From UHGV virus genome UHGV-0310767: a stretch of DNA of 64,000 bases. One strand, written 5' to 3'. Numbering within the stretch: the first letter of the stretch is position 1; each line of letters opens with the position of its first letter. The notes beneath the pieces are model-generated. The model was not told where the DNA came from and did not search any database. It saw nothing but the letters and a program-made list of their open reading frames with translations. Below are positions 28,722 through 51,039 of this stretch, piece by piece. The position numbers and the translations under genes are program-made. The stretch comes from a virus.

Positions 28722-29027
28722 TTACTGCTTTTTATCCATATCCTGTTCTTGATATACTTCTTCTTTGGTCAGCACAATAAAATTTAAAGGGACTCGGTTT
28801 TTGTTTGGTTTTTCCAAAAGAATTAAATTTTCTATAGCCCCTATATTATCATTGTTTTCCGTTGTAATTAAAAGATTATTCATGGGACAGATATATTTAT
28901 CAGATTCATGAAGGATTTTATAATACTTTCCTTTTGTCCATATTACCAAAGGGGCAAAATCTTTCCCCTTTGGATTTGGCAAACTTACATCTTTCAAGCA
29001 TTTTAAAAATTTTACACTGCTGTCCAA
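28722..29027 (-). CDS. Hypothetical protein (101 aa)
   Basis: ORF overlapping the helicase stop. Confidence 0.35.
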   Translation of the reverse strand: MDSSVKFLKCLKDVSLPNPKGKDFAPLVIWTKGKYYKILHESDKYICPMNNLLITTENNDNIGAIENLILLEKPNKNRVPLNFIVLTKEEVYQEQDMDKKQ

Positions 29028-32000
29028 AATGTATCATCCTCCGTTTCTTCGTTATTCATAATTTCTTTTTGTGAAGTTTTTAATTCATAACTCTTAAGCA
29101 GAAAATCTTTTAATTGAGTTTGTCGATTTTCATTTCCATCAATAGCAATACAATTTTCTACAGTACTTAAATCTCCTATTTGGGTAGTTTCTTGAGATGC
29201 CCTAGAAATCCCAGTGTAAAGAAGATTATTATTGAAACTTCTTTCATGACATTTTAAGCTAAGAAATATAATATGGGGACACTGAGAGCCTTGATATTTA
29301 TGGATAGTTCCAGCATAACCTAGTACAAGTGAGTTACAATCGTCCCCTTTGAATACTACCATATTTTCATCAAACTGGATGATTAGAACGTTGTTAGCAT
29401 CAATATCCAGGATTTTACCTATATCTCCATTGAACACTCCTACAGTTTCTTGAGCAAGACTTAAATCTACTTCTCCTGTTTCTTCTAAAATTCTTTTGTA
29501 AGTTTCGTAAGTAGGTACAGTGTAATTGTTTTTGGTATTCATTACAATGTCTCCCTTACGAAAAGTAATAGTACAATCTTTTACATCTCTTTCGATTACT
29601 CTTTCATTTTTTCTTGCCGGGTTAATAGCCGATTGAATAAGATTATTAATCCTATAAGTTCCAAATTCTTTTACATTCCATGGAGTAATAACCGCAATAT
29701 CAATTGGTTTAATTCCCCGGTTAATTTTTTCCATGTAAGTATCCAGAATTTGTTCTGTGGTTCCATTACTTTTTATAAATGTGTAATCTTTATTAATTCC
29801 CAATACACATTTAACTCCATCTTCAAAATTAAGTTTTTCGTGTATAGAAAGTTTATTATAAATATCATTGACGATAGCGGATAATCCACCTTCTTTGTAA
29901 CGAAATACTTTAGTAAGAGTGATAACAGGAATGATATTGCTTTCTATAAAATCTCTCATGACACAACCTAAAGCAATGGAAGGAAGCTGATGAATGTCTC
30001 CACTAAATACAAATCTTACATCTGGATTAGAACAAGCTTTAACTAACATCATCATATGTTCTAATCCATACATAGACCATTCATCACATATAATCACATC
30101 TGAATCTATACCACCATCAGCTTGTGCCTGGGAACATCCTTTATGAACAGTAGAAGCTTTTCTATGAGTTTGTTCCGCTAATCTTTTAGCGGCCCTTCCC
30201 GTAGGTGCAAATAGAGAATAGGTTTTTCCATTATCTTCTAGCATATTTATTAATGCCATCATAGAAGATGTTTTACCACAATTCCCAGTAATGAAAATAT
30301 TATTCTTTCTACGTAATACTAACATTCCTGTCTCCACTTCAAAACAATATTTAAAGCCGTCTATAGATTTAACTTTAATTATTTCTGTTTGTTTTTTATG
30401 AGTAGGACGTGAATCTTTAGTGATAGTTAATAAATTTCTGGTGGTAATTGCTAATTCATATTCTGTACTTTTAGTAACATATTCTTTGTTGTTAATCTTT
30501 CTAATTCTTCCTATTCTATTTTTTTCTTTTAAAGATGCTTTATAGTCACAAGCACTAAAAGCAAATTGTATAAAGTTAGCTGTAGAAAGAACAGTTGTGG
30601 AAAAAGTTTTTCTATTTCCAATAATACTTCCATCCCATTGTAAAATATTGTCACACACAATTTGTAACTGTTTTTGTGTACAATTATACCAATAAGATAA
30701 AAATTCTTTTTCTTTACGTGGTGCATAAATATAAAAATCTGTATAACCTTCTGCGGCAGATTCTTTTTCTCTCCATTGTAAATTAGATTCTTTAAAAAGA
30801 TTACGAAGGTCATCTTTTTTTCTTTGTTTCTTTATATGAAATCTACATAATGTAGTATTACTATGCGTAAATGTTCCATCACATATAACAGCACACATTA
30901 TTTTAATTTCATTGTCTGTTAAATCAATACCCTTTCCATCGTATCTAAAGCTGATAATAAATTTTCCTCTAAATCCTCTTTCATTAGTTTCGTGTTTATT
31001 TTTTAAATCTAACATAGTAGTAAATTTTAATTGCTGTTTTCCTCTATCGCTGTAAATATAAGGTATAACATGTTCTTCGCTTAAAGTTTGATTAAGTCCA
31101 TACTTAGTTTCAAAATGATACATTTCATTACATGGCAATTTGATATAGCGCAAAGGCTTTACCAACTCTGCGGTTCCATCAACATTATACTGTAATACTT
31201 TTTCTTCTGGGATATATTGAGCAATAGATTTCCATTCTTTTCCATTAAAATATTCTGTTTCAGAATCTACGCAACCTGCCCCGGCATTAAGTACAGCAAC
31301 TCTATTTTCGCATACTACATGAAGTAATTCACTCTGTTCATCTGTTAATGTGCCGTCTTTTATTTTTGTATATTTTTTCCATTCAAAATTCCAAGCTGGC
31401 CCAGGAGTACATAAGATATCAATAAAAAAATCTGCAATGGTAGATTCTGCTATATAAGTATCTGCTTTAGCAATACGCTTAGTAGCATCATCATACCAAA
31501 TCTTTTGACTTTCAACACATGTTTTTTTAATATGAGGAATACAATCTTTATCTATTTCAGCGCAGAAGCCAGCCATTGTATTTGCATCCATATATGTGTT
31601 ATCATCTTCTTCGTTAAGATTTAATATATGAAGTGCAATATGTTCAATACGATTGGCAGATTCTTTTAACTCTGGTCGTATTTTCATAAGTAATTTATCT
31701 GTTCTTAAAAAGTCTCTATGCAGTACATCTATAAGAACAGAATAAGGTTCTTTGTTAATAGCTTCTTCTACAGCTTCAACAGAACCATATACGTTATCCA
31801 ATTCCTGGCATTCCCCAATAGTTAAATCATAATTCTTATGATGGATTAAAATATAATAATACTTAAATCTGGTATTAATTTCTCTGATGTAACAATTCAA
31901 TCTGTATTCTTTGATGTTTTTTAATTTCTTAACATCTATTTCCTCTGTTTTACCATTTATTACCATGGCAATAAAATTGGGATATACAGTTAATAAAGTA

Positions 32001-32338
32001 TTGGCCTGAGTTTCCGTAGTGAATTTAGTAAGAATCTCCATAGACTGTTCTATAGTTAATTCTTCCAAATCCTTAACTATCTCATAATCCTTTACTTTTT
32101 CTACCATGTACTGTAATCCATACCTGGGATGATTGACTTGTTTTAAATCCAGTGTATAGGATTCCCCATTTTTAAGAAAAGATAAATCTCCTGAGATAGT
32201 AAAATTGCCATATTTGTTAAGGCTTATTTTACTTTCATCTTTTGGATTGTCTAACAAACAGGCGAAAGTCCTATAATTATTAGAAGAATATATTTCCCTA
32301 ATGATAGTACATTTGATTCCCTCAATAAATCTTTCCAT
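29012..32338 (-). CDS. RecD/Dda-like SF1 DNA helicase interrupted by an intein in the Walker A motif (extein about 777 aa).
   Basis: After intein removal the P-loop reads VLNAGAG|CGKTSS. Motif Ia is FAPTGRAAKRL. The C-terminal SF1 motifs include YAGTIHKYQGSQ. Confidence 0.8.
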   Translation of the reverse strand: MERFIEGIKCTIIREIYSSNNYRTFACLLDNPKDESKISLNKYGNFTISGDLSFLKNGESYTLDLKQVNHPRYGLQYMVEKVKDYEIVKDLEELTIEQSMEILTKFTTETQANTLLTVYPNFIAMVINGKTEEIDVKKLKNIKEYRLNCYIREINTRFKYYYILIHHKNYDLTIGECQELDNVYGSVEAVEEAINKEPYSVLIDVLHRDFLRTDKLLMKIRPELKESANRIEHIALHILNLNEEDDNTYMDANTMAGFCAEIDKDCIPHIKKTCVESQKIWYDDATKRIAKADTYIAESTIADFFIDILCTPGPAWNFEWKKYTKIKDGTLTDEQSELLHVVCENRVAVLNAGAGCVDSETEYFNGKEWKSIAQYIPEEKVLQYNVDGTAELVKPLRYIKLPCNEMYHFETKYGLNQTLSEEHVIPYIYSDRGKQQLKFTTMLDLKNKHETNERGFRGKFIISFRYDGKGIDLTDNEIKIMCAVICDGTFTHSNTTLCRFHIKKQRKKDDLRNLFKESNLQWREKESAAEGYTDFYIYAPRKEKEFLSYWYNCTQKQLQIVCDNILQWDGSIIGNRKTFSTTVLSTANFIQFAFSACDYKASLKEKNRIGRIRKINNKEYVTKSTEYELAITTRNLLTITKDSRPTHKKQTEIIKVKSIDGFKYCFEVETGMLVLRRKNNIFITGNCGKTSSMMALINMLEDNGKTYSLFAPTGRAAKRLAEQTHRKASTVHKGCSQAQADGGIDSDVIICDEWSMYGLEHMMMLVKACSNPDVRFVFSGDIHQLPSIALGCVMRDFIESNIIPVITLTKVFRYKEGGLSAIVNDIYNKLSIHEKLNFEDGVKCVLGINKDYTFIKSNGTTEQILDTYMEKINRGIKPIDIAVITPWNVKEFGTYRINNLIQSAINPARKNERVIERDVKDCTITFRKGDIVMNTKNNYTVPTYETYKRILEETGEVDLSLAQETVGVFNGDIGKILDIDANNVLIIQFDENMVVFKGDDCNSLVLGYAGTIHKYQGSQCPHIIFLSLKCHERSFNNNLLYTGISRASQETTQIGDLSTVENCIAIDGNENRQTQLKDFLLKSYELKTSQKEIMNNEETEDDTFWTAV
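30281..31273 (-). mobile_element. Intein (331 aa) inserted in the helicase P-loop, probably with a degenerate LAGLIDADG homing-endonuclease core.
   Basis: Starts CVDSETEY (Cys1) and ends ...IFITGN followed by Cys+1. Block-B-like TLSEEHVIPY. The flanking extein halves reconstitute GAGCGKT. Confidence 0.75.
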
Positions 32339-32982
32339 TATTCTCCTTCTTTCTTTTTGTTTCGTAGTTTCTGAGTTAAATATTTACATTCATATCCATT
32401 ATTTTTCATATGTTTTTTAAGTCTGGGAATAATCTGCCTTGCATAAATTCTGTTTACATCTACAGAAGTTAGTTTTTCTTGTGTTATTTTTTCAGCTATT
32501 TCAAGATTATTTAATCCTTCTATAACTCTTAAGTAAAATATTTCTTTTTGTATAGAATTTAAAGTGGGAATAAATGTTTTTAATATCTGCATCAAATCTG
32601 TATAACCATCTAATTCCTCCATATTATCATAATTACCCAAGGTATCAGCAATGGTTAAACTTTCTAAATCTGGTGATGCATAAGCTGGTTGTTCTAAACT
32701 TAAAACAGATTTATCAAAGTTTCTTTGATGCACCCTACGAATAGTTCTAATATATTCGCTATGCATAAGAAGATACGCAATTGTACTTAATTTTCCTTTT
32801 TCTGGATTATATGTTTTAACTGCTTTACATAATCCTATACATGCTGGGCCATGACCTTCCTCAAAGGGTATTCTATGACTTTGTAAATAACTGATTACAA
32901 GGCCGTAATTATCGTATACAACCTTCTTTTGTTCGGAACTGAGTATAACATCACTTGTAGAAATATAATCTGTTGTTTCCAT
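32338..32982 (-). CDS. Sigma-70-family RNA polymerase sigma factor (214 aa).
   Basis: Region 2-like GLCKAVKTYNPEKGKLSTIAYLLMHSEYIR. Region 4 HTH EIFYLRVIEGLNNLEIAEKITQEKLTSVDVNRIYARQ. Confidence 0.7.
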   Translation of the reverse strand: METTDYISTSDVILSSEQKKVVYDNYGLVISYLQSHRIPFEEGHGPACIGLCKAVKTYNPEKGKLSTIAYLLMHSEYIRTIRRVHQRNFDKSVLSLEQPAYASPDLESLTIADTLGNYDNMEELDGYTDLMQILKTFIPTLNSIQKEIFYLRVIEGLNNLEIAEKITQEKLTSVDVNRIYARQIIPRLKKHMKNNGYECKYLTQKLRNKKKEGE

Positions 32983-33303: not shown

Positions 33304-34797
33304 TTATTCTTCCTCTCTATCTGCCCTTTCAAATTGTAATGATAAACTTAAATCAGGATTTACATTACGAATTTTTATTACACTATGCGTAAAGACAGAA
33401 TTTTTATATTTCTTTGCTATAAATTCTTCTTCATCATCTTCACTTTTACGATATCCTGATATCATAAGTAGTGTACCTTTTTTAAACCAATTAGTATCTT
33501 CGTCAAATTCTTCTGTTTCACTAATACTTTTTTTATAGTAAGCATACTGTCCTTCATTAAATTTAACCATAACTACATCATTATCTGGTGTAAGAAGATT
33601 AATAAAATGTTTACTGTCGTTACGACTTAATACCACACCACATATTCTTGAAAGGTCGTATTGTCTCCATTTTCTTTTCCCATTCTTACTACTTTTTTCT
33701 ACAAAAATAGGAGATGTGGGTAAATCTTGATAATGACTAATATTATATTCTTCAAAATCAATACCTGTAAGTTCGTGCTTATCTGGATAAAAAGAAATGG
33801 TTTCCATACTCCATTTAGGAATATTTTCATACTTTACCAGATTCATATATTCTTGTTGCCAATATTTCTTATTGTATTCTTCTACTAAAGATGGATTATT
33901 AATATAGCTTATTAATTCATCTAATTCTGGTTTTAGAACTTTATCCAAAGATTTATCAATAACAATAAGCATATCATTCTCGTAATAAAAATCTTTTCCT
34001 TCTGTAAGGTCATTAATATAATGTTCCTCAAAGAATGGTCTAGCAAATTTATCCTCAAGTATATAATCTTTTTTAGTCTTAAATTTCTCATTCTTACGAT
34101 AAAAGAAATTAGGACTTTCTACATATTTTCTAAAGTTATATACTTTAACAAGGTGTTTAGGAAGCGTACAACCCAATTCTAAGCATTTAGAAAGATTAGC
34201 CATAGTAAGAGTTGTCTTAGCTGGATTCTCCCAGCATATAAGCCATTTAAGCATTAATATCTTATCATCACATAATGAATCGAAACAACCAGCTTTAATT
34301 AAAGTGGCAAATATACTTTTTGTAACTAAACTTTTTCTATAAATCATATTTCCTTTTTCGTCCAATTCTCCCGTGGGAACTAATAAATTCTTCTGATAAT
34401 CATAAAATTCTTTGAACGAATTATAAGGTCTGCCGCTCATAATATCTTTGGCAACATCCCTATTCATTTTAGTAATTCCACCTAATCCAAAAAGAATTAA
34501 ACTTTCGTCTACTAAAGGAGTAAAGGATAAGTCTGATTTATTTATATCTGGCGGCAATGTATTTATACGATAATCTTTCATACGATAAATAGCTTTTGCC
34601 ATTTTTTCATAATTAGTTCCAGTATTCTTTTTCTTTCTTTCTAAATCTTCATATTCATCTTCATTTTCTTCTGTTGATGAAGATTCTACAGTTAAACAGG
34701 CACAAGCCCAAAATACAGGAGGAAAGAAGTAATTTACATTGAGTTCTTGTAAACCAATTACTGAGTAAGCGTACGAATGTAATTGGGAAAAGGAATT
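33304..34797 (-). CDS. dnaE: DNA polymerase III alpha subunit (DnaE-type) exon 3 (C-terminal part: HhH and OB region). The 5' boundary is approximate.
   Basis: The frame is open from 34797. Encodes ...HSYAYSVIGLQ...FWACACLTVESSS...TLPPDINKSDLSFTPLVDESLILFGLGGI, matching the DnaE FNKSHSAAYALVSYQ ... ILPPDIN ... FGLGAIKGVG region. Confidence 0.7.
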   Translation of the reverse strand, partial: NSFSQLHSYAYSVIGLQELNVNYFFPPVFWACACLTVESSSTEENEDEYEDLERKKKNTGTNYEKMAKAIYRMKDYRINTLPPDINKSDLSFTPLVDESLILFGLGGITKMNRDVAKDIMSGRPYNSFKEFYDYQKNLLVPTGELDEKGNMIYRKSLVTKSIFATLIKAGCFDSLCDDKILMLKWLICWENPAKTTLTMANLSKCLELGCTLPKHLVKVYNFRKYVESPNFFYRKNEKFKTKKDYILEDKFARPFFEEHYINDLTEGKDFYYENDMLIVIDKSLDKVLKPELDELISYINNPSLVEEYNKKYWQQEYMNLVKYENIPKWSMETISFYPDKHELTGIDFEEYNISHYQDLPTSPIFVEKSSKNGKRKWRQYDLSRICGVVLSRNDSKHFINLLTPDNDVVMVKFNEGQYAYYKKSISETEEFDEDTNWFKKGTLLMISGYRKSEDDEEEFIAKKYKNSVFTHSVIKIRNVNPDLSLSLQFERADREEE

Positions 34798-36188
34798 TCA
34801 ATAGTTTTAATTGCATTTCTACAACATATGTATTCCATAAACATATGAAATCATATGAACTATTGAGGACTATATCTTTGTAAAAATTAAAAAATGAATG
34901 AATGATATTATAAAAAATAACAAAGACGACAATTTTTTTAGTTTCTATTTAATTTCCTTTTATTAGGATTATTCCTAACTAATGTAGATTTAGTAATCCC
35001 CGTCATTTCAGCCACTTCATCATAGGTATGAGTTTTTAATAATTCTAATGCTTTACTCATATCTTCTTCTGAATAAGCTTTATAACTTTTACCTCTTTCG
35101 ATATTCCACATTCTACCTTCATTATCAGGAACTTCATTATTAAAACAAAACCATAATTGTTCCCTAGTTATAGGTAATGTAGCAATAGAAGTATAAGTGT
35201 TTACTTCATTATTCTTAATAGAAGTATATTTTTTAGGCTTATTATCATTGACAGCTTTTATTCTTTCTACATCTATTTGACTAGGAATTTTTGCATATCT
35301 CTCAATTAAAATATTATAATCTCTATAATAATGATTTTTATAAGATAAACGATACATTCTCATAGTATCTTTATTTTCATCATTATAAGAATTATAAACT
35401 TTAATCAACTCTCCATTTTCGTCATATTCTACACATTTTCTACTATTAGATTCTGTAGCTTTAAGTTGATTAATTCTACAAGATTCTTTACGTTTTTCAC
35501 TATCTTTGTTAATCAAACCAGTAGCAGAAGCATGAATCATATTAAGTTTTCTGTCTACCCATTCTAAATTAGTAGCTTTATTATTAGTTTTATCTCCATC
35601 AATATGATTTACTTCTTTATATTGTTCTGGTTTAGGATTTTCACAAAAAGCAAATGCTACTAATCTATGAACCATATAGTTATGTCCTTTTAAATTAATT
35701 CCCATATATCCAGTATTATTATTTTTGCAAGATTTTATATTCTTTTTGTTATGTTTTATATTGCCTAAATTACTTATATAATAATCTTTACTTCCCTCAA
35801 TCTCTTTCCAAATTTCCATTCTTTCTGAATTTTTCATATTTTCCTCCTTTCTTCATTATTTTTTAAAACAATCATTCATTCATCATCATTCATTTTTTAA
35901 TATTACAGATTTGCACTTCCATTAACGTATCAATAGTTAATGTACTTCCTGTCGGAATAGTCTCTACATCTTCTTTAATATTACTATTAAAGCTTGACAC
36001 GGTATTATCAGCTATCTATATATCTTAATATAGACCTTAGAATTTCTTAGTCAGCGGCTTCGTCCTTTTTATTATGCTGTAATCTAGTTGTAACTCTTGT
36101 ACAGCGGTCTTATTCAACTGATACCGTTAGCATTGCACTTCTATGCAACACACCCCTGATAGGGTTCACAAATCATGACCATTATTAC
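34798..36188 (-). mobile_element. Group-I-intron-like intervening sequence 2 in dnaE, carrying an HNH endonuclease ORF. Boundaries are approximate.
   Basis: About 1.39 kb between the dnaE coding segments. The homologous DnaE sequence stops at ...FGY and resumes at ...SQLHSYAYS. Contains ORF 34938..35837 plus about 350 nt of non-coding structured sequence. Confidence 0.6.
34938..35837 (-). CDS. Intron-encoded HNH homing endonuclease (NUMOD4/HNH_3-like; 299 aa).
   Basis: N-terminus WKEI...YYISNLGNI (NUMOD4-like) then HRLVAFAF...VNHIDGDKTNNKATNLEWV (HNH_3). Confidence 0.7.
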   Translation of the reverse strand: MKNSERMEIWKEIEGSKDYYISNLGNIKHNKKNIKSCKNNNTGYMGINLKGHNYMVHRLVAFAFCENPKPEQYKEVNHIDGDKTNNKATNLEWVDRKLNMIHASATGLINKDSEKRKESCRINQLKATESNSRKCVEYDENGELIKVYNSYNDENKDTMRMYRLSYKNHYYRDYNILIERYAKIPSQIDVERIKAVNDNKPKKYTSIKNNEVNTYTSIATLPITREQLWFCFNNEVPDNEGRMWNIERGKSYKAYSEEDMSKALELLKTHTYDEVAEMTGITKSTLVRNNPNKRKLNRN

Positions 36189-37313
36189 ATAGCCAAAACT
36201 CATACCAAATAATTCATACCATATATAATTGGCAAATAATTCTCTACACCCTTGTTTAATACAATGCTCAAAGAACATGATTCTTGTGGCTTCTAACACT
36301 TCATCGTCTTTTTTTGCTATAGCTTTTCTTAATTTATTGGCCTGTTTAAGACTAAATCCTGCAACTCTTTTATCCATGGAAATAAGCATAACTTTTTCCT
36401 GGGATTCTGGAAGCATACGAGAATCAGAACAATATTGTCTTATAACGTCCATTTCATCTTCTGTTAATCCATATTCATGACAATCTTTTTCCCATTCTTT
36501 TACATCGGCATATCTAGCATATCTCTGTAATGGAGTCTCAGTAGTTTCACCACTACCCATCAATCGTAATATGGAATTAGTTGCAGATAACTCCATTAAA
36601 TTTTTGGGCTGTACTACATTAATAGCATTTACTGACACAGGAGTATCGAACTGAAATAAAGAATAAATATCTTTAATGATTCCCCACATAGAAGGATTGT
36701 CATAATTTATAACATCTGGATGTAAGTACTTATCATATGTTGCTTTTAAATTACCTTGCCATTCTAAATATTTATGCTCAACCAATAAATCCATAGTAGT
36801 TCTTAATTTATCGCTGGCTTTTACTGTAAGCATATCTACTTTAACAATACCGCAATCTTCACAATCCTGCAAATCATAACAAGTACATAAATCTCCATTA
36901 GGGGCTTTCATACAAGAAATATAGTTAGTATAAGGCTCATTTGAGATAATTAATCCTGCGGCATGAAGTCCTCTACCAACGACAATTCCTTCTAAAGCTA
37001 ATGCACACTCTTTAAGATTAGGATACTTGTTAATTTCCTTTATAAATTCTTTTGCTGGTTTTCTATTTTTTTTAGTATTTCCTTCTAAACAATCCTTAAG
37101 ACTCCAAATCATTCCTCTTTCTACTGGAATTAAAGATTTAAGATATCCTGCGGCATCATCAGAAATTCCTAAACCTTTACAGGATTTTTCTATAGCTGTT
37201 TTGGAAGTCATTTCAGAAAATGTAGCCACTTTTAAAACCTTATCAAATCCCCAGAATTTTGCAATGTTGTGTGCAATAATTTGCTTTTTTGTATTCTGTG
37301 AATCTAAATCAAT
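36189..37313 (-). CDS. dnaE: DNA polymerase III alpha exon 2 (polymerase core middle part). Boundaries are approximate.
   Basis: Begins IDLDSQNTKKQIIAHNIAKFWGFDKVLKVATF (DnaE PD|IDIDF...VAQIATFG) and contains GRGLHAAGLIIS (DnaE GRHAAGVVI). Confidence 0.7.
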
Positions 37314-38163
37314 CCTTTATACCCCTGGTTTCCCAGTACTTTAACACATTTTATTTCAAATGTGGGAGTAGACTATATCTTCATCTTGTTTTATCAACAA
37401 GAGGATGGCACAGGATAAAAGGAATTTCACCTTTTACCACTTAGTCGTTTGAGTTTCAGCGCAATGTAATAAGTTTGAAATTTCTACTATAACCCCTTCT
37501 CATTAACATAGAATGTGAAACATCTAAATTATGAGAATCAATATATTTCTTTACCTCAGTGTTACCTTTTAATTTTGGACTTTTGTTACCATTAGGATAA
37601 ACTATTATATAATATAAATAATTTCTTACTGCATTTATTCCTGATGTTTCATAACTTTTATTTATATTTTCTTTTTGAGTTACCCATTCTAAATTGGTGT
37701 AATGATTATTAAGTGTATTTGCATCTTTGTGATTTACTACAGCACCTTCAAACCATCCAGGAACAAATGCCATAGCTACCAATTGATGAACCCCTTTTCT
37801 ATACACTTTATTATCCTTACTTAAGTCCACATATTTGTAACCGCCTTTATTAACAAATCCATTTAATATTTTGGGATTTTTATATTTATGGCTAATTACT
37901 TTTCCATCTTCTGTAACACTGTATTTTTCAAACTTATCAATTATTTTTTCTATTCTTTTTTTAATTTCCTTTCTACATATTCTTATTACTTGCGCCGCTT
38001 ACCACAGGATTACCATGCTTTTTTTAAAGTTTAGGCTTCCCCTGTTAGCACAATTCCTAATCATCATTTCCTATGATTCCTAAACGTGAATTGTACACCC
38101 TAGATTTCTAGGTTCACCATCTTATTTTCTATATGTCACCATATAGCCAGACTATTGAAGTTA
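37314..38163 (-). mobile_element. Group-I-intron-like intervening sequence 1 in dnaE, carrying an HNH endonuclease ORF. Boundaries are approximate.
   Basis: Exon 1 ends ...GIEIPD (last nt U) followed immediately by a stop. Exon 2 resumes IDLD after ...taaag|g. Contains ORF 37456..37830. Confidence 0.6.
37456..37830 (-). CDS. Intron-encoded HNH homing endonuclease (HNH_3; 124 aa).
   Basis: HQLVAMAF...VNHKDANTLNNHYTNLEWVTQKEN. Confidence 0.7.
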   Translation of the reverse strand: MDLSKDNKVYRKGVHQLVAMAFVPGWFEGAVVNHKDANTLNNHYTNLEWVTQKENINKSYETSGINAVRNYLYYIIVYPNGNKSPKLKGNTEVKKYIDSHNLDVSHSMLMRRGYSRNFKLITLR

Positions 38164-39585
38164 ATCTGGAATCTCAATACCTCTTTCTGTACTTAAATGT
38201 CTCCAATATGGAGCATAGTCACCCAAAGGTACAGGGTCAATTTGTGTAATTTCTAATAAATAACATGTTAAATATCCAAAAGCTGAACCTCTGGACGGCA
38301 TACAAAAACTATTTGATTCCCAAATTATTTCTACAATTCTACTTACACTAGTATAATAAGCCGCCATATGAGATTTGAATATTTCACTTAATCCTTTTAA
38401 TTCTTTAGCTTCTTTATTGATTCTATCAATATATGTTTCTAAATTCTTTTGTGGCTTACTTTCAATAAGTTTTTCTAACCCTTTTTCTACACGATAGAAA
38501 AAATACTGGTCTTGAATATTATCAGAATAAGCATAATATTTAAAATACTCATATTTATTATAATATTTTTTATATCTATGAGTAATTTTAAATTCTGGTA
38601 TTTTGTCCAATGGAATCTCTGGTATCATAGGCATATGTTTTAAATCATATGTTCTTACTCTATCTGCAATTTCATTACTATTTTTAAATATTGTATCTAT
38701 TTCTTCATCTGTAAATGTAATTCTTAAATGTTCCCTTAATTCCTGGGGAGACATAAGATAAGTAGTTGCATAGAAAGAATCTACTTCTCTGTCTCCATCT
38801 TTAGAATTAAGTAAAGTTTTATGATATAATGCTGATTCTTTGTTAAGATAATGAGTATCAGTTGTGGCTATAATTTTAAAACCATATTGTACTGAAAGTT
38901 CTTTCATGGCTTCATTCACTATAAGCTGGTCAACATTATCCTCTTTACACGGCTGAATCTCCAAGTAAAAATTGTTAGAGCCGAAAACTTTATTACACCA
39001 GGATAAAAAATCGCTTATGCGTTTTAAAACGCCTATACTCTTTTGTACCTCTTTATAACCCGGTTCTGGTTTCTTCCACTGCAAGATAAGTTTGTCAAGA
39101 TAGGAACCAAGACATGCAGAAGATGCAATTAAATGTCCTTTATTATTTCCGATAATTTCTTCTATATCAGAATAATAAGTTGGTCTACGCATAAGTCTAC
39201 GGGATGTATAAGCACGTTGCCATGCTTTACTACTTATTTCTCTTAATTGCTTATGACCTTCTGTATCTAAAGCAGTTAAAATAAAATGGTAATAGGGAGT
39301 ATAATCGGTTCCTTCTCTATTACTCATATCTTCTGCTTCACTCATAAGATATATTTCATTTCCTAATGCTAATTTAAAAGGTCTATCTTTCTCCATCTTT
39401 TCATAATATTTCAATGCTTGCATATGAGAAGATATACCTTCATGTTCTGTAATAGCTATTCCAGATAGCCCCAAATCATAAGCATACTGAATTAACTCAT
39501 TAACTCTAGTAATAGCATCAGGAAAACCTAATAACGCACTACTATAACATGAATGATTATGATTATCAAAATAAATATCTGTCAT
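38164..39585 (-). CDS. dnaE: DNA polymerase III alpha exon 1 (PHP domain plus the start of the polymerase core).
   Basis: N-terminus IYFDNHNHSCYSSALLGFPD (PHP HxH). Ends ...RHLSTERGIEIPD. Confidence 0.75.
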
Positions 39586-49289: not shown

Positions 49290-49526
49290 TTATTTTTTGT
49301 TGTATATCATTCCAAACAAGAATACATATATTCTAAAAAATCTACCCACTTCCTGGTCACTTTCAACAAAATAATTATCACACAAATGCTTCCCATTTTC
49401 ACAAGTTCCCAAAAATATTTTAATTCTGCCAACCAAAATGAGATAACTCCCTCTATTAAGTTTAATCGTTTCATCGTATTTTCTTATTGTTCCTTTCTTC
49501 ATTTTATATACTTCAATTTTATTCAT
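49290..49526 (-). CDS. Hypothetical protein (78 aa)
   Basis: ORF only. Confidence 0.3.
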   Translation of the reverse strand: MNKIEVYKMKKGTIRKYDETIKLNRGSYLILVGRIKIFLGTCENGKHLCDNYFVESDQEVGRFFRIYVFLFGMIYNKK

Positions 49527-51039
49527 TATTTATTATTGTCCTTTCTACACTCAATGGAGAATTGAATTGATTGGTACAAAATATATCTTCTGTTCTACCC
49601 GTTCCTAAGTCTATATACTGCCATACTTTAACACCTTGACCATACATAGAAAATCTGGTTTTATAATTATGAGTAATATGGGTAGGCCGCTTACATGTAC
49701 CAAATCCTTTACGATTTAATAATGTATCTACTAATTCCATTTCTTTAGGTCTTAAAGGAAGGATAATCCCTCCATCATCTAATTTAGTTTTAATCTGTTT
49801 TGAACCAAAAATACAATTTTCGTCAATAATATCATTGACAGATTCTTTTCCGTTAAGCTGAGTACCACTATAAGTTCCTATATCATATTCTTCTGATAAT
49901 GATTTAAGAACTTTTGCAATCTCAAACAATACCATATCTTGACGAATAGGTGTACTGACTCTTTGTTTGTATTCGCTACCAAATTCTGAGTTATCCCAAA
50001 TATAATCAAAGAAACAATATTTTGCACCCCATAAAAAACATTGCCTATAAATATCCTTTAACTTTGGCGTGGTAAAATCTGGCTGGTTAAAAATTTCAAT
50101 ATGAGATTCATATAAAATTTTTCCTGCTTCCAGTAATCTTTCTTTTTCTATTTTATTATAATTTCCATTAAGTATCCTATGATAAGGAATACCACTAATC
50201 CAAGAAATAAATTTAGGCTGTACCTCCGTTTTCTGTTGCATTTCTGTGTGAATCATAAAACCGTCACCATCACGATTAGGATTATCTACATATCTTTCTT
50301 CTTTGTAATCCCAATACTTAGTGGCGCATACGTTGCACAAATCTCCTATAGTTGTGGTTGTTTTGCCCCCTCCACTTCCACCAGACCTCAATAATAAATG
50401 TCCTTGTTGCCATCCTCGATAAAAAGTATTCATATAAGGAGATTGTAACATAGCACCCATAACAGGATTACTTTCAAATTCAAGTAATGTATTTTCCCAA
50501 TCAGCACCAGCCCTCATAGTTTCTTTACATAATTCTGTATCGTACTTCATGTTAAGCTTATCAGTTTTCTCACTAATTTTAGTCAACATTTTCTTTATAT
50601 CAAATAAATTAAGATTCTCTCTTTGACTTTCTTCTGTTTTATCTTCATCATAAAATGAAGTTATATCAATTCCTAAATCTTTGGCATCTCTCAATAAACT
50701 ATATTTTCTTACAATATTGTAATGCAATTCATAATTATCTGGATTTACCAATTGTTTTGCAGTTGATATAAAATCCAAATAATTATTATCCATACATACT
50801 TCTAATTGCGAAGGATAATTTTGTAAGAATTTATCCAATATTATTTCATCTATTTCTTCTGCGCCATTTTTAAACAACCATGCAATAGATTTAAATAATA
50901 TTTCATGAAATAGAATAGGTTTAAAATCATCTGAACAAATAGGAAATTTTCTACTTGTGACCAAAGAAGGATTTTGAAACAATATTCCTAATACCATAGA
51001 ACTGTCAGAAGCAGAATAAAGCATTATAAATCCTCCCAT
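49519..51039 (-). CDS. DnaB-like replicative DNA helicase (506 aa).
   Basis: Walker A LRSGGSGGGKTTTT in the C-terminal RecA-like domain. N-terminal helical domain. Length and position. Confidence 0.6.
   Translation of the reverse strand: MGGFIMLYSASDSSMVLGILFQNPSLVTSRKFPICSDDFKPILFHEILFKSIAWLFKNGAEEIDEIILDKFLQNYPSQLEVCMDNNYLDFISTAKQLVNPDNYELHYNIVRKYSLLRDAKDLGIDITSFYDEDKTEESQRENLNLFDIKKMLTKISEKTDKLNMKYDTELCKETMRAGADWENTLLEFESNPVMGAMLQSPYMNTFYRGWQQGHLLLRSGGSGGGKTTTTIGDLCNVCATKYWDYKEERYVDNPNRDGDGFMIHTEMQQKTEVQPKFISWISGIPYHRILNGNYNKIEKERLLEAGKILYESHIEIFNQPDFTTPKLKDIYRQCFLWGAKYCFFDYIWDNSEFGSEYKQRVSTPIRQDMVLFEIAKVLKSLSEEYDIGTYSGTQLNGKESVNDIIDENCIFGSKQIKTKLDDGGIILPLRPKEMELVDTLLNRKGFGTCKRPTHITHNYKTRFSMYGQGVKVWQYIDLGTGRTEDIFCTNQFNSPLSVERTIINNE

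What the first reader, a model, noticed from the sequence alone, without database searches (positions are those of the whole stretch)
30281..31273. An intein sits precisely inside the Walker A P-loop of the RecD/Dda-like helicase.
The 331-aa insertion begins with Cys (CVDSETEY) and ends ...ITGN before Cys+1. Removing it recreates the canonical GAGCGKTS P-loop. It contains a block-B-like TxxH and probable degenerate LAGLIDADG segments (KIMCAVICDGTF, FAFSACDYK). The P-loop is the classic hotspot for inteins.
Basis: partly seen in the sequence, partly recalled or inferred. Interest (0 to 1): 0.6.

Follow-up and report, generated by a model that had tools for sequence, protein, structure and literature searches.

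The report
Mobile intein splitting a phage helicase P-loop
A self-splicing, self-copying protein insert (an intein with its own DNA-cutting enzyme) interrupts the ATP-binding loop of a gut-phage helicase. Sister phages carry the same insert in a different helicase instead, so it appears to move between ATP-binding loops.

Summary
Window 30281-31273 (minus strand) encodes a 331-aa in-frame insert, CVDSETEY...IFITGN, followed by Cys. It lies in a 1108-aa RecD2/YrrC-type helicase (29012-32338) between NAGAG and CGKTS.

The interpretation as an intein holds, although Pfam and NCBIfam see nothing.
- Sister phage CB473P1 has the same helicase, exactly 993 nt shorter at this point.
- An AlphaFold model (pLDDT 97) matches solved intein-plus-LAGLIDADG structures (TliVMA E=1e-14, PI-SceI).
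- A family profile hits the AceL NrdHF intein.
- Removing the insert in silico restores one continuous RecD2 match.
- dN/dS is 0.13.

Block B is S65-x-x-H68, and the second LAGLIDADG motif is ...ILQWDGS.

The insert belongs to a very large family (at least 1366 clusters at 50% identity). Members almost always sit at G|[C/S/T]GK of Walker A, in many unrelated NTPases. Three sibling Enterocloster phages carry a mosaic copy of this intein, 93-96% identical in DNA blocks, in the DnaB-like helicase P-loop. In the window that DnaB site is empty.

The active site combines Cys1 with class-3-like Cys F:4, Thr G:5 and Gly G:6, so the splicing route is unresolved.

Verdict: a new, unannotated member of a known kind, and a useful natural test system.

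The parts
29012..32338 (-). Precursor ORF, 1108 aa: a RecD2/YrrC-type SF1B helicase interrupted by the intein
   Evidence: ORF found. Pfam domains OB_YrrC, HHH_RecD2, AAA_30, SH3_13 and UvrD_C_2. TIGR01448 RecD2 at 1.6e-103 in 2 stretches. The gene is 99.7% identical to PMBT24 'exodeoxyribonuclease V'.
31274..32338 (-). N-extein (aa 1-355), ending ...VAVLNAGAG, the first half of Walker A
30281..31273 (-). Intein, 331 aa: a Hint splicing domain with a nested LAGLIDADG homing endonuclease
29012..30280 (-). C-extein (aa 687-1108 plus stop). It begins with Cys+1 (codon 30278-30280), then GKTSS, the second half of Walker A
31232..31273 (-). Block A: C1-V-D-S-E-T6-E7...W14
   Evidence: C1, T6, E7 and W14 are invariant in 67 sequences. 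C1 is present in 142 of 144 further relatives.
31052..31099 (-). Block B: GLNQTL-S65-EE-H68-V-I70-PYIY
   Evidence: H68 is invariant. This stretch aligns to block B of the AceL NrdHF intein 6zgq, 'VSPNHRMIY'. Positions.
30869..30913 (-). LAGLIDADG motif 1 (NEIKIMCAVIC-D132-GTF)
   Evidence: A128 and D132 are at least 90% conserved. Pfam LAGLIDADG_3 hits 19 of 67 relatives. Foldseek matches I-DmoI and other LAGLIDADG enzymes.
30623..30673 (-). LAGLIDADG motif 2 (KQLQIVCDNILQ-W213-D214-G215-SI)
   Evidence: W213 is invariant; D214 and G215 are at least 90% conserved. Helix 200-214 in the model.
30308..30361 (-). Block F: DGFK-Y309-C310-F311-EVETGMLVLRR, with Cys at F:4 where class 1 inteins have Asp
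   Evidence: Y309, C310 and F311 are invariant. The Y-C-h pattern is present in 143 of 144 further relatives. [quoted passage not shown]
30281..30304 (-). Block G: NNIFI-T329-G330-N331. It has the terminal Asn and Thr at G:5, with Gly in place of the penultimate His
30974..31069 (-). Site-linked variable segment 1 (aa 69-100; a beta-hairpin and helix after block B)
   Evidence: It is 95% identical in nt to the allelic CB457P2 intein and 53% to the DnaB-site intein, while the flanking blocks show the opposite pattern. Secondary structure.
30314..30463 (-). Site-linked variable segment 2 (aa 271-320; the end of the endonuclease domain to block F)
   Evidence: It is 88% identical to the CB457P2 intein and 61% to the DnaB-site intein.
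49519..51039 (-). DnaB-like replicative helicase with no intein. This is the alternative home of the same intein in sibling phages. The empty site GGSG|GGKTTT lies at about 50359-50382
   Evidence: tblastn with the CB473P1 DnaB exteins gives 98.8% identity over 501 aa with no gap. Site sequence. Pfam DnaB_C. The intein-bearing allele is in CB473P1.

Best explanation
The segment is a bona fide intein of 331 aa: a Hint protein-splicing domain with a LAGLIDADG homing endonuclease nested inside it. It is inserted between Gly355 and Cys687 of the Walker A loop (GAG|CGKT) of a phage RecD2-type helicase.

Shown here:
- It is an in-frame insertion with exact boundaries that is absent from an otherwise 92%-identical allele.
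- It has the Hint + LAGLIDADG fold.
- All splice-junction residues are present: Cys1, Ser65/His68, Asn331 and Cys+1.
- It is under purifying selection.
- It is polymorphic among sibling phages, with short co-converted flanks.

Inferred mechanism:
1. The 1108-aa precursor has a split P-loop and cannot bind ATP.
2. The Hint domain folds, and a thioester forms at the N-terminal junction, by Cys1 or possibly by Cys310.
3. The N-extein is passed to Cys+1.
4. Asn331 cyclises and releases the 38-kDa intein.
5. An S-to-N shift leaves a native GAGCGKT loop in a 777-aa active helicase.

The freed endonuclease would then cut intein-less P-loop alleles in co-infecting phage genomes. Recombinational repair would copy the intein in (homing).

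The family's target is the short G|[C/S/T]GK coding core, so it can also land in P-loops of other NTPases. In the Enterocloster phage group it occupies either the RecD2 P-loop or the DnaB-like P-loop.
For: Empty site: the CB473P1 ortholog is 777 aa, the gap is exactly 993 nt, and the site reads NAGAG|RGKSSS.

Fold: the AF2 model has pLDDT 97 and pTM 0.93. The best PDB matches are full intein-endonucleases: TliVMA 7qsu at 1.2e-14, PI-SceI at 2e-11, PhoVMA and PI-PfuI. There are separate hits for the Hint part (AceL NrdHF 6zgq, hedgehog 1at0) and for the LAGLIDADG part (I-DmoI).

Sequence: a family profile hits the AceL NrdHF intein at 4.4e-6.

Conserved residues:
- C1, T6, E7, H68, W213, Y309-C310-F311 and N331 are invariant in 67 sequences.
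- In 144 further representatives, C1 is present in 142, the terminal N in 143, and +1 is C, S or T in 143.

Host repair: in-silico splicing extends AAA_30 to profile positions 2-168 (109.6 against 89.2 bits). It also turns TIGR01448 RecD2 into one stretch covering 27-712 of 713.

Selection: dN/dS is 0.13 overall, 0.07 for Hint-N, 0.19 for the endonuclease and 0.11 for Hint-C, against the CB457P2 allele.

Homing signature: CB457P2 (intein-bearing) matches the window for about 27 nt upstream and 12 nt downstream of the intein. Beyond that it matches the empty CB473P1 allele.

Alternative site:
- In CB473P1, CB473P3 and CB457P1 the intein sits in the DnaB-like helicase as GGSG|C...GN|SGKTTT.
- Its DNA is 96.1% (nt 1-204) and 93.3% (nt 301-810) identical to the window's copy.
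- The window's DnaB-like gene is empty at that site.
- Each of the six phages has exactly one copy.

Family breadth:
- There are 1366 representatives at E<=1e-3.
- The exteins of 66 relatives fall into 18 unrelated BLAST clusters.
- The hosts include DnaC/IstB, dNMP kinase, PhoH, TerL, UvrD, ABC, SNF2, RtcB and metallophosphatase.
Against: - Pfam, NCBIfam and single-sequence PDB searches do not recognise the insert.
- The penultimate His (G:6) and the F:13 His, which usually assist Asn cyclisation, are absent (Gly330, Val319).
- Block F position 4 is Cys where class 1 inteins have the canonical Asp.
- The window copy has Ile107 where 59 of 67 relatives, and PMBT24, have Thr.
- No splicing or endonuclease activity has been measured for any member closer than the AceL NrdHF intein, which is 24% identical.
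- The empty alleles differ from the intein-bearing flanks at 5-6 of the central 15 nt. Whether they are cleavable is unknown.
Confidence: 0.88

Rival explanations
1. This is the same element, but it splices by the class 3 route. Cys310 (block F position 4), assisted by His68 and Thr329, attacks the N-terminal junction and forms a block-F branched thioester. That intermediate is then passed to Cys+1. Cys1 is dispensable, or plays a secondary role such as a relay or redox switch.
For: - Cys at F:4 is invariant (67/67, and 143/144 in the second set) and Thr at G:5 is nearly invariant (138/144).
- His is absent at G:6 and F:13.
- Ser65, His68 and an aliphatic residue at B:12 match the AceL NrdHF intein (S65, H68, M70, C124, T144, no His at F:13 or G:6). 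That intein was shown experimentally to be class 3 (PMC7891396).
- AceL NrdHF is the only mini-intein among the top 50 Foldseek hits, and the only intein found by sequence.
- The F:4-to-G:7 spacing of 21 residues equals that of the Msm and Mle DnaB class 3 inteins.
- Class 3 is defined by the N-terminal nucleophile not being required, which does not mean it must be absent.
Against: - Cys1 is conserved in 142/144 and 67/67 relatives, which argues that it is needed.
- Trp at B:12 of the WCT triplet is absent (Ile70).
- Known class 3 inteins nearly always have Ser or Thr at +1, whereas here +1 is Cys in about 55%.
- Block F was assigned by pattern and spacing only. The HMM alignment to 6zgq did not reach it in register.
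Confidence: 0.3
2. The insert is a decayed or domesticated intein remnant. It no longer splices, or no longer homes, and the helicase gene in this phage is non-functional or works with the insert in place.
For: - No curated HMM recognises it.
- The penultimate His is absent.
- T107I occurs at a conserved position in this copy.
- The annotated genome paper for the near-identical PMBT24 does not mention an intein.
Against: - All junction residues and both LAGLIDADG aspartates are intact.
- dN/dS is 0.13 across all three parts.
- The insert splits the Walker A loop, so an unspliced protein could hardly hydrolyse ATP.
- A 99.4%-identical copy sits in a viable cultured virulent phage.
- Gly at the penultimate position is the family norm (131/144) and is also seen in active mycobacteriophage inteins.
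- Presence/absence polymorphism with co-conversion tracts indicates recent mobility.
Confidence: 0.07
3. The insert is a bacterial intein-like (BIL) or other Hint-domain autoprocessing module. It cleaves but does not ligate, splitting the helicase into two polypeptides.
For: It has the Hint fold and lacks the penultimate His.
Against: - BILs lack the +1 nucleophile. Here +1 is C, S or T in 143/144 relatives.
- The insertion is exactly at a motif that must be contiguous, with the terminal Asn conserved.
- A nested LAGLIDADG endonuclease and homing-type polymorphism are intein features.
Confidence: 0.02

Closest known systems
AceL NrdHF-1-1 intein (PDB 6zgq), a naturally split, atypical class 3 intein from an Ace Lake metagenome
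   Same: - It is the only solved intein found by sequence (profile E=4.4e-6).
- It is the best Hint-only structural match (24% identity, TM 0.53).
- It shares an unusual residue set: Ser at B:7, His68 at B:10, an aliphatic residue at B:12, Cys at F:4, Thr at G:5, and no His at F:13 or G:6.
   Different: - AceL NrdHF starts with Ala1, is split into two genes, and has no endonuclease.
- It sits in a ribonucleotide-reductase-related host rather than a P-loop.
- The window intein starts with an invariant Cys1, is contiguous, and carries a LAGLIDADG domain.
Archaeal VMA-b inteins (TliVMA 7qsu/7qss, PhoVMA 7qst) and PI-SceI / PI-PfuI
   Same: - They are the top full-length structural matches and have the same Hint + nested LAGLIDADG architecture.
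- The Tli and Pho VMA inteins also sit in an ATPase P-loop.
- Accessory segments next to the Hint domain were shown there to modulate target choice. This may parallel the two site-linked segments found here.
   Different: - Sequence identity is only 7-13%.
- Those inteins have His-Asn ends and are larger, at 376-454 aa, with distinct accessory domains.
- PI-SceI (VMA-a site) is not in the P-loop.
Mycobacteriophage and mycobacterial P-loop inteins (TerL1-a/b; DnaB-b / Msm DnaBi1, class 3)
   Same: - They are phage-borne inteins in Walker A of ATPases.
- The penultimate His is often replaced by Gly in phage inteins.
- Related inteins occur in different exteins (TerL and DnaB).
   Different: - The 'classic' site is K|T, whereas here it is G|[C/S/T]GK, two residues upstream.
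- The DnaB-b inteins lack an N-terminal nucleophile and carry the full WCT triplet.
Anaeramoeba 'cluster 1' P-loop inteins (PNAS 2023, PMC10710043)
   Same: It is one intein clade inserted in the Walker A motifs of non-homologous proteins, interpreted as P-loop-to-P-loop transfer, with phage relatives noted.
   Different: - The host genomes are eukaryotic.
- That cluster is described as having atypical N-terminal residues, whereas here Cys1 is canonical.
- Homology between the two clades was not tested here.
- The phage case offers reciprocal filled and empty alleles at both sites in near-identical genomes.

Membership tests
Intein (general) | In-frame insertion within a host protein that is absent from orthologs, with the host motif restored on removal | tested here: met
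   The CB473P1 ortholog lacks exactly these 993 nt. Removal gives GAGCGKT and a single-stretch RecD2 match.
Intein (general) | Hint (hedgehog/intein) fold of the splicing domain | tested here: met
   The AF2 model has pLDDT 97. Foldseek hits solved inteins and the hedgehog autoprocessing domain. A profile hits intein 6zgq. The Pfam and NCBIfam Hint models give no hit.
Intein (general) | C-terminal Asn and a Cys/Ser/Thr as the first C-extein residue | tested here: met
   The window copy has N331 and Cys+1. Across the family, the terminal N is present in 143/144 and +1 is C, S or T in 143/144.
Intein (general) | Block B (T/S)xxH | tested here: met
   S65-E-E-H68, with the His invariant. It aligns to block B of 6zgq.
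Intein (general) | Autocatalytic protein splicing (excision plus extein ligation) | not testable with these tools
   This needs expression and western blot or mass spectrometry. Indirect support comes from purifying selection and presence in a viable phage.
Class 1 intein | Cys/Ser/Thr at intein position 1 | tested here: met
   C1 is invariant in 67 relatives and present in 142/144 others.
Class 1 intein | Asp at block F position 4 and His at G:6 (typical but not universal) | tested here: not met
   The residues are Cys310 and Gly330. Family-wide, Cys is present in 143/144 and Gly in 131/144.
Class 3 intein | WCT triplet: Trp B:12, Cys F:4, Thr G:5 | tested here: inconclusive
   Cys310 and Thr329 are present, but B:12 is Ile70 rather than Trp. 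The proven class 3 AceL NrdHF intein has Met there.
Class 3 intein | N-terminal nucleophile not required, and Cys F:4 absolutely required for splicing | not testable with these tools
   This needs C1A and C310A mutants. The strong conservation of C1 argues that it is used.
LAGLIDADG homing endonuclease (two-motif, monomeric) | Two LAGLIDADG helices, each ending in a catalytic acidic residue, within an alpha-beta-beta-alpha-beta-beta-alpha fold | tested here: met
   Motif 1 ends ...VIC-D132-G and motif 2 ends ...QW-D214-G, and both Asp are at least 90% conserved. Foldseek matches I-DmoI and I-Tsp061I. Pfam LAGLIDADG_3 hits 19 of 67 relatives, but not the query itself.
LAGLIDADG homing endonuclease (two-motif, monomeric) | Site-specific cleavage of the intein-less allele, and homing | not testable with these tools
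   The evidence is indirect: presence/absence polymorphism, short co-conversion tracts and dN/dS of 0.19 on the domain.
RecD2 (SF1B helicase, TIGR01448) as host | Full-length match above the curated cut-off | tested here: not met
   The spliced protein scores 368 bits against a cut-off of 500. The architecture OB_YrrC + HHH_RecD2 + AAA_30 + SH3_13 + UvrD_C_2 is RecD2-like. It is therefore a divergent RecD2-type helicase and does not qualify as an equivalog.

The most novel reading that the evidence does not exclude
This intein may represent a very large, largely unannotated, phage-borne lineage with two linked properties.

(a) A hybrid active site. It combines Cys1 with the class-3 Cys F:4 and Thr G:5, and lacks both assisting histidines. 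It might splice by a thioester relay from Cys1 to Cys310 to Cys+1, or by either nucleophile interchangeably. Three active-site cysteines could also make it redox-gated in an anaerobe's phage.

(b) A generalist targeting strategy. The endonuclease recognises the short G|[C/S/T]GK coding core. Two swappable internal segments (aa 69-100 and 271-320) could then tune it to a particular host gene. The Enterocloster phages may show this retargeting between the RecD2 and DnaB-like helicases.
Probability: 0.25. Interest if true: 0.72.

Novelty: new member of a known kind. Interest (0 to 1): 0.5.

Why it matters
Practical points:
- The helicase in PMBT24-like Enterocloster phages is annotated simply as 'exodeoxyribonuclease V' or 'hypothetical protein'. 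About 30% of the ORF is in fact a mobile element that standard domain databases miss.
- Annotation pipelines will mis-size this protein, and hundreds of other P-loop proteins carrying relatives of the insert.

Biological points:
- How inteins reach new, non-allelic sites is a long-standing open question.
- Six cultured, near-identical phages of one culturable host carry the same intein in one of two different helicase P-loops.
- Natural empty alleles exist at both sites, and co-conversion tracts are visible.
- This makes ectopic intein movement, and the role of the two site-linked segments, directly testable by phage crosses and in-vitro cleavage.
- The unusual Cys1 + Cys F:4 active site offers a natural intermediate for asking how class 3 splicing arose from class 1.

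Tried and rejected
- Pfam, NCBIfam and phmmer-versus-PDB searches on the insert alone found nothing. I read this as a sensitivity failure, because profile, structure and comparative evidence are all positive.
- A PHROGs hit to the 'PhoH-like' family phrog_32482 is not evidence that the insert is PhoH. That family's profile contains a related intein. Relatives sit in phage PhoH genes.
- I tried to put block F in register with the class 3 intein 6zgq, using a mini-intein profile with the endonuclease deleted. The alignment stopped before block F and its tail was out of register. The F:4 assignment therefore rests on the Y-C-h-x-V pattern, on invariance, and on spacing compared with published class 3 numbering.
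- My recollection that PI-SceI sits at the identical G|CGKT position was checked and dropped. The yeast VMA-a site is not the P-loop site, whereas the archaeal VMA-b site is.
- A second copy of the intein in the window was searched for by tblastn and none was found.
- A simple 'one jump, then divergence' model for the RecD2 and DnaB copies was rejected. The identity pattern is mosaic, with 93-96% blocks next to 53-61% blocks. This requires recombination between intein lineages.
- Rfam searches gave no hits, either over the whole window or in the interrupted DnaE region.
- The Tori and Perler 2011 paper on class 3 inteins with N-terminal nucleophiles is not held in the library. Statements about it rely on how later papers cite it.
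Full report
**1. The observation**

The gene lies on the minus strand, as a single ORF at 29012-32338 of 1108 aa. Window 30281-31273 (-) translates without stops to 331 aa, CVDSETEYFNGKEW...LRRKNNIFITGN. It is preceded by ...ENRVAVLNAGAG and followed by CGKTSSMMALINMLEDN.

**2. The host protein**

Pfam finds OB_YrrC, HHH_RecD2, AAA_30, SH3_13 and UvrD_C_2. NCBIfam finds TIGR01448 (RecD2) at 1.6e-103, but in two stretches. After in-silico excision (777 aa):
- AAA_30 extends from profile positions 30-168 to 2-168, and the score rises from 89 to 110 bits.
- TIGR01448 becomes one stretch covering 27-712 of 713 at 368 bits.

That score is below the 500-bit equivalog cut-off, so the host is a divergent RecD2/YrrC-type SF1B helicase.

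**3. Is the insert an intein?**

Pfam, NCBIfam and a single-sequence PDB search find nothing in the insert. Four independent lines nevertheless agree that it is.

(a) Empty allele. The window is 98.9% identical to Enterocloster phage PMBT24 and about 90% identical to five other E. bolteae phages. In PMBT24 the gene is 1108 aa and annotated 'exodeoxyribonuclease V'. In CB473P1 the ortholog is 777 aa and 92% identical in the flanks. Its alignment gap is exactly the 993 nt of the insert, and the site reads NAGAG|RGKSSS.

(b) Structure. An alignment-based AlphaFold model has pLDDT 97 and pTM 0.93. Its best PDB matches are whole intein-endonucleases: TliVMA at 1.2e-14, PI-SceI at 2e-11, PhoVMA and PI-PfuI. 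Partial matches cover the Hint part (AceL NrdHF intein, hedgehog autoprocessing domain) and the LAGLIDADG part (I-DmoI, I-Tsp061I).

(c) Sequence. A profile of 67 relatives hits the AceL NrdHF intein at 4.4e-6 over blocks A-B.

(d) Conservation.
- Among 67 full-length relatives, C1, T6, E7, W14, H68, W213, Y309-C310-F311, R321 and N331 are invariant.
- In 144 further cluster representatives, C1 is present in 142 and the terminal Asn in 143.
- In the same set, +1 is Cys in 78, Ser in 56 and Thr in 9.
- dN/dS against the CB457P2 allele is 0.13 overall: Hint-N 0.07, endonuclease 0.19, Hint-C 0.11.

**4. Anatomy**
- Block A: residues 1-14.
- Block B: L-S65-E-E-H68.
- LAGLIDADG motif 1: IKIMCAVIC-D132-G.
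- A basic patch: HIKKQRKK, residues 146-153.
- LAGLIDADG motif 2: QIVCDNILQ-W213-D214-G215.
- Block F: K-Y309-C310-F311-EVE.
- Block G: IFI-T329-G330-N331, followed by Cys+1.

**5. The family**

A word-indexed search gave 92 relatives. An exhaustive search gave 1366 representatives at 50% clustering with E<=1e-3, of which 873 had E<=1e-10. Most of the closest are proteins of about 1050-1200 aa with the intein at about residues 340-400. These are RecD2-type helicases occupied at the same site. Others are DnaB-like proteins of about 820 aa.

The insertion point is strikingly uniform. Position -1 is Gly in 140/144, +1 is Cys, Ser or Thr, +2 is Gly in 138, and +3 is Lys in 140.

The hosts are not uniform. 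The exteins of 66 relatives fall into 18 BLAST clusters. By Pfam or annotation they include DnaC/IstB-like loaders, dNMP and guanylate kinases, PhoH, terminase, UvrD, SNF2/DEAD and ABC proteins. A few hosts are not P-loop proteins but have a look-alike xG|CG site: RtcB, metallophosphatase and an unnamed family. No cultured-phage record examined lists an intein among the features under the match. The PMBT24 genome paper never uses the word.

**6. Movement between two P-loops**

Each of the six Enterocloster phages has exactly one copy. PMBT24, CB457P2 and CB473P2, like the window, have it in RecD2. CB473P1, CB473P3 and CB457P1 have it in a DnaB-like helicase (823 aa...RSGGSG|CVDSETEY...FITGN|SGKTTT). 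The window's DnaB-like gene (49519-51039) is 98.8% identical to those exteins and is uninterrupted, reading GGSG|GGKTTT.

The flanks of the filled sites resemble each other, and the empty sites differ from them:
- Filled RecD2 site: GGT|TGTGGTAAAACA.
- Filled DnaB site: GGT|TCTGGTAAAACA.
- Empty RecD2 site: GGG|CGCGGCAAAAGT.
- Empty DnaB site: GGA|GGGGGCAAAACA.

In the RecD2 gene, CB457P2 follows the window for about 27 nt upstream and 12 nt downstream of the intein. Beyond that it follows the empty CB473P1 allele. This is a typical co-conversion tract.

The two non-allelic inteins are mosaic:

| Segment (nt) | Window vs DnaB-site copy | Window vs allelic CB457P2 copy |
|---|---|---|
| 1-204 | 96.1% | 88.7% |
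| 301-810 | 93.3% | 88.8% |
| 205-300 | 53% | 95% |
| 811-960 | 61% | 88% |

The last two segments correspond to aa 69-100 and 271-320. Sequence has therefore been exchanged recently between inteins at two different genes, while two internal segments stay with the insertion site. Why they do so is unknown. Two possibilities are structural co-adaptation and a role in target recognition. The second would resemble the accessory domains of the VMA-b inteins. Neither was tested here.

**7. Mechanism**

The standard intein pathway is inferred, as set out under the best explanation. What is unusual is the catalytic set: Cys1 together with Cys at F:4 and Thr at G:5, Gly at G:6 and no His at F:13. Apart from Cys1, this is the set of the AceL NrdHF intein (A1, S65, H68, M70, C124, T144). 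That intein was shown experimentally to use the class 3 route through the block-F cysteine. The C310-to-N331 spacing of 21 residues equals that of proven class 3 DnaB inteins.

Class 3 is defined by the N-terminal nucleophile not being required, so the presence of Cys1 does not exclude it. The near-absolute conservation of Cys1, however, argues that it is used. I rate class 1 with an unusual F:4 Cys as most likely. I give a class 3 or relay mechanism about 0.3. Sequence alone cannot settle this.

**8. Comparison with what is known**
- P-loop inteins are well documented. The 'classic' site is K|T, and this family uses G|[C/S/T]GK, two residues upstream.
- Related inteins in different exteins have been noted in mycobacteriophages.
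- P-loop-to-P-loop transfer between non-homologous proteins was proposed for Anaeramoeba in 2023.

The element is therefore a new, unannotated member of a known kind. Three aspects go beyond the routine: the size and uniform targeting of the family, the hybrid active site, and the reciprocal filled and empty alleles in culturable sibling phages.

**9. Caveats**
- No biochemical data exist for this family.
- The window copy has Ile107 where 59 of 67 relatives, and PMBT24, have Thr.
- The block F assignment is by pattern and spacing (one search failed to align it).
- The site-linked segments rest on only two lineages.

Noticed in passing
window 33304-39585 (-); insertions at 34795-36188 and 37314-38163: The DNA polymerase III alpha gene is one 1345-aa ORF in PMBT24. 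In the window it is broken into three pieces by insertions of 1394 nt and 850 nt. The larger insertion carries a 299-aa I-HmuI-like endonuclease ORF (34938-35837). CB457P2 and CB473P1 have the same arrangement. The insertions look like endonuclease-bearing introns, but Rfam finds no group I or II intron there.
   Followed up: partly
window 30953-30955 (codon for intein residue 107): The window's intein has Ile107. The 99.4%-identical PMBT24 copy and 59 of 67 relatives have Thr. It is the only Ile in that alignment column, at the junction between the Hint and endonuclease domains. The effect is unknown.
   Followed up: partly
window 30278-30280 and about 50368-50370; L004 (CB473P1 helicase): Both natural empty alleles have a non-nucleophilic residue at the +1 position: Arg in the CB473P1 RecD2 and Gly in the window's DnaB-like helicase. 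The +1 Cys or Ser therefore arrives together with the intein. An intein inserted without co-conversion of that codon could not splice.
   Followed up: partly
proteins P0109, P0137, P0150, P0153, P0238; Escherichia phage records H41-H44, H90: Some proteins match the intein in 2-4 separate stretches, and some phage genomes have two places with a match. Multiple inteins of this family may therefore occupy one protein or one genome.
   Followed up: no
P0045 (362 aa): This relative has Gly in place of Cys1 and Asp in place of the terminal Asn, with almost no extein. It may be a decayed or free-standing endonuclease derivative of the family.
   Followed up: no
proteins P0076, P0080, P0081 (RtcB), P0056, P0061 (metallophosphatase), P0064, P0073, P0075, P0082 (unnamed family, 'WEPA|CG.GH'): Family members also sit in proteins that are not P-loop NTPases, at sites that mimic the target core (xG|CG or xA|CG). 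This is consistent with recognition of a short DNA core rather than of a protein family.
   Followed up: partly
window 32338-32982 (-): A sigma-factor-like gene (214 aa) ends exactly where the helicase ORF starts, sharing base 32338. It is annotated as RNA polymerase sigma factor SigK in PMBT24.
   Followed up: no
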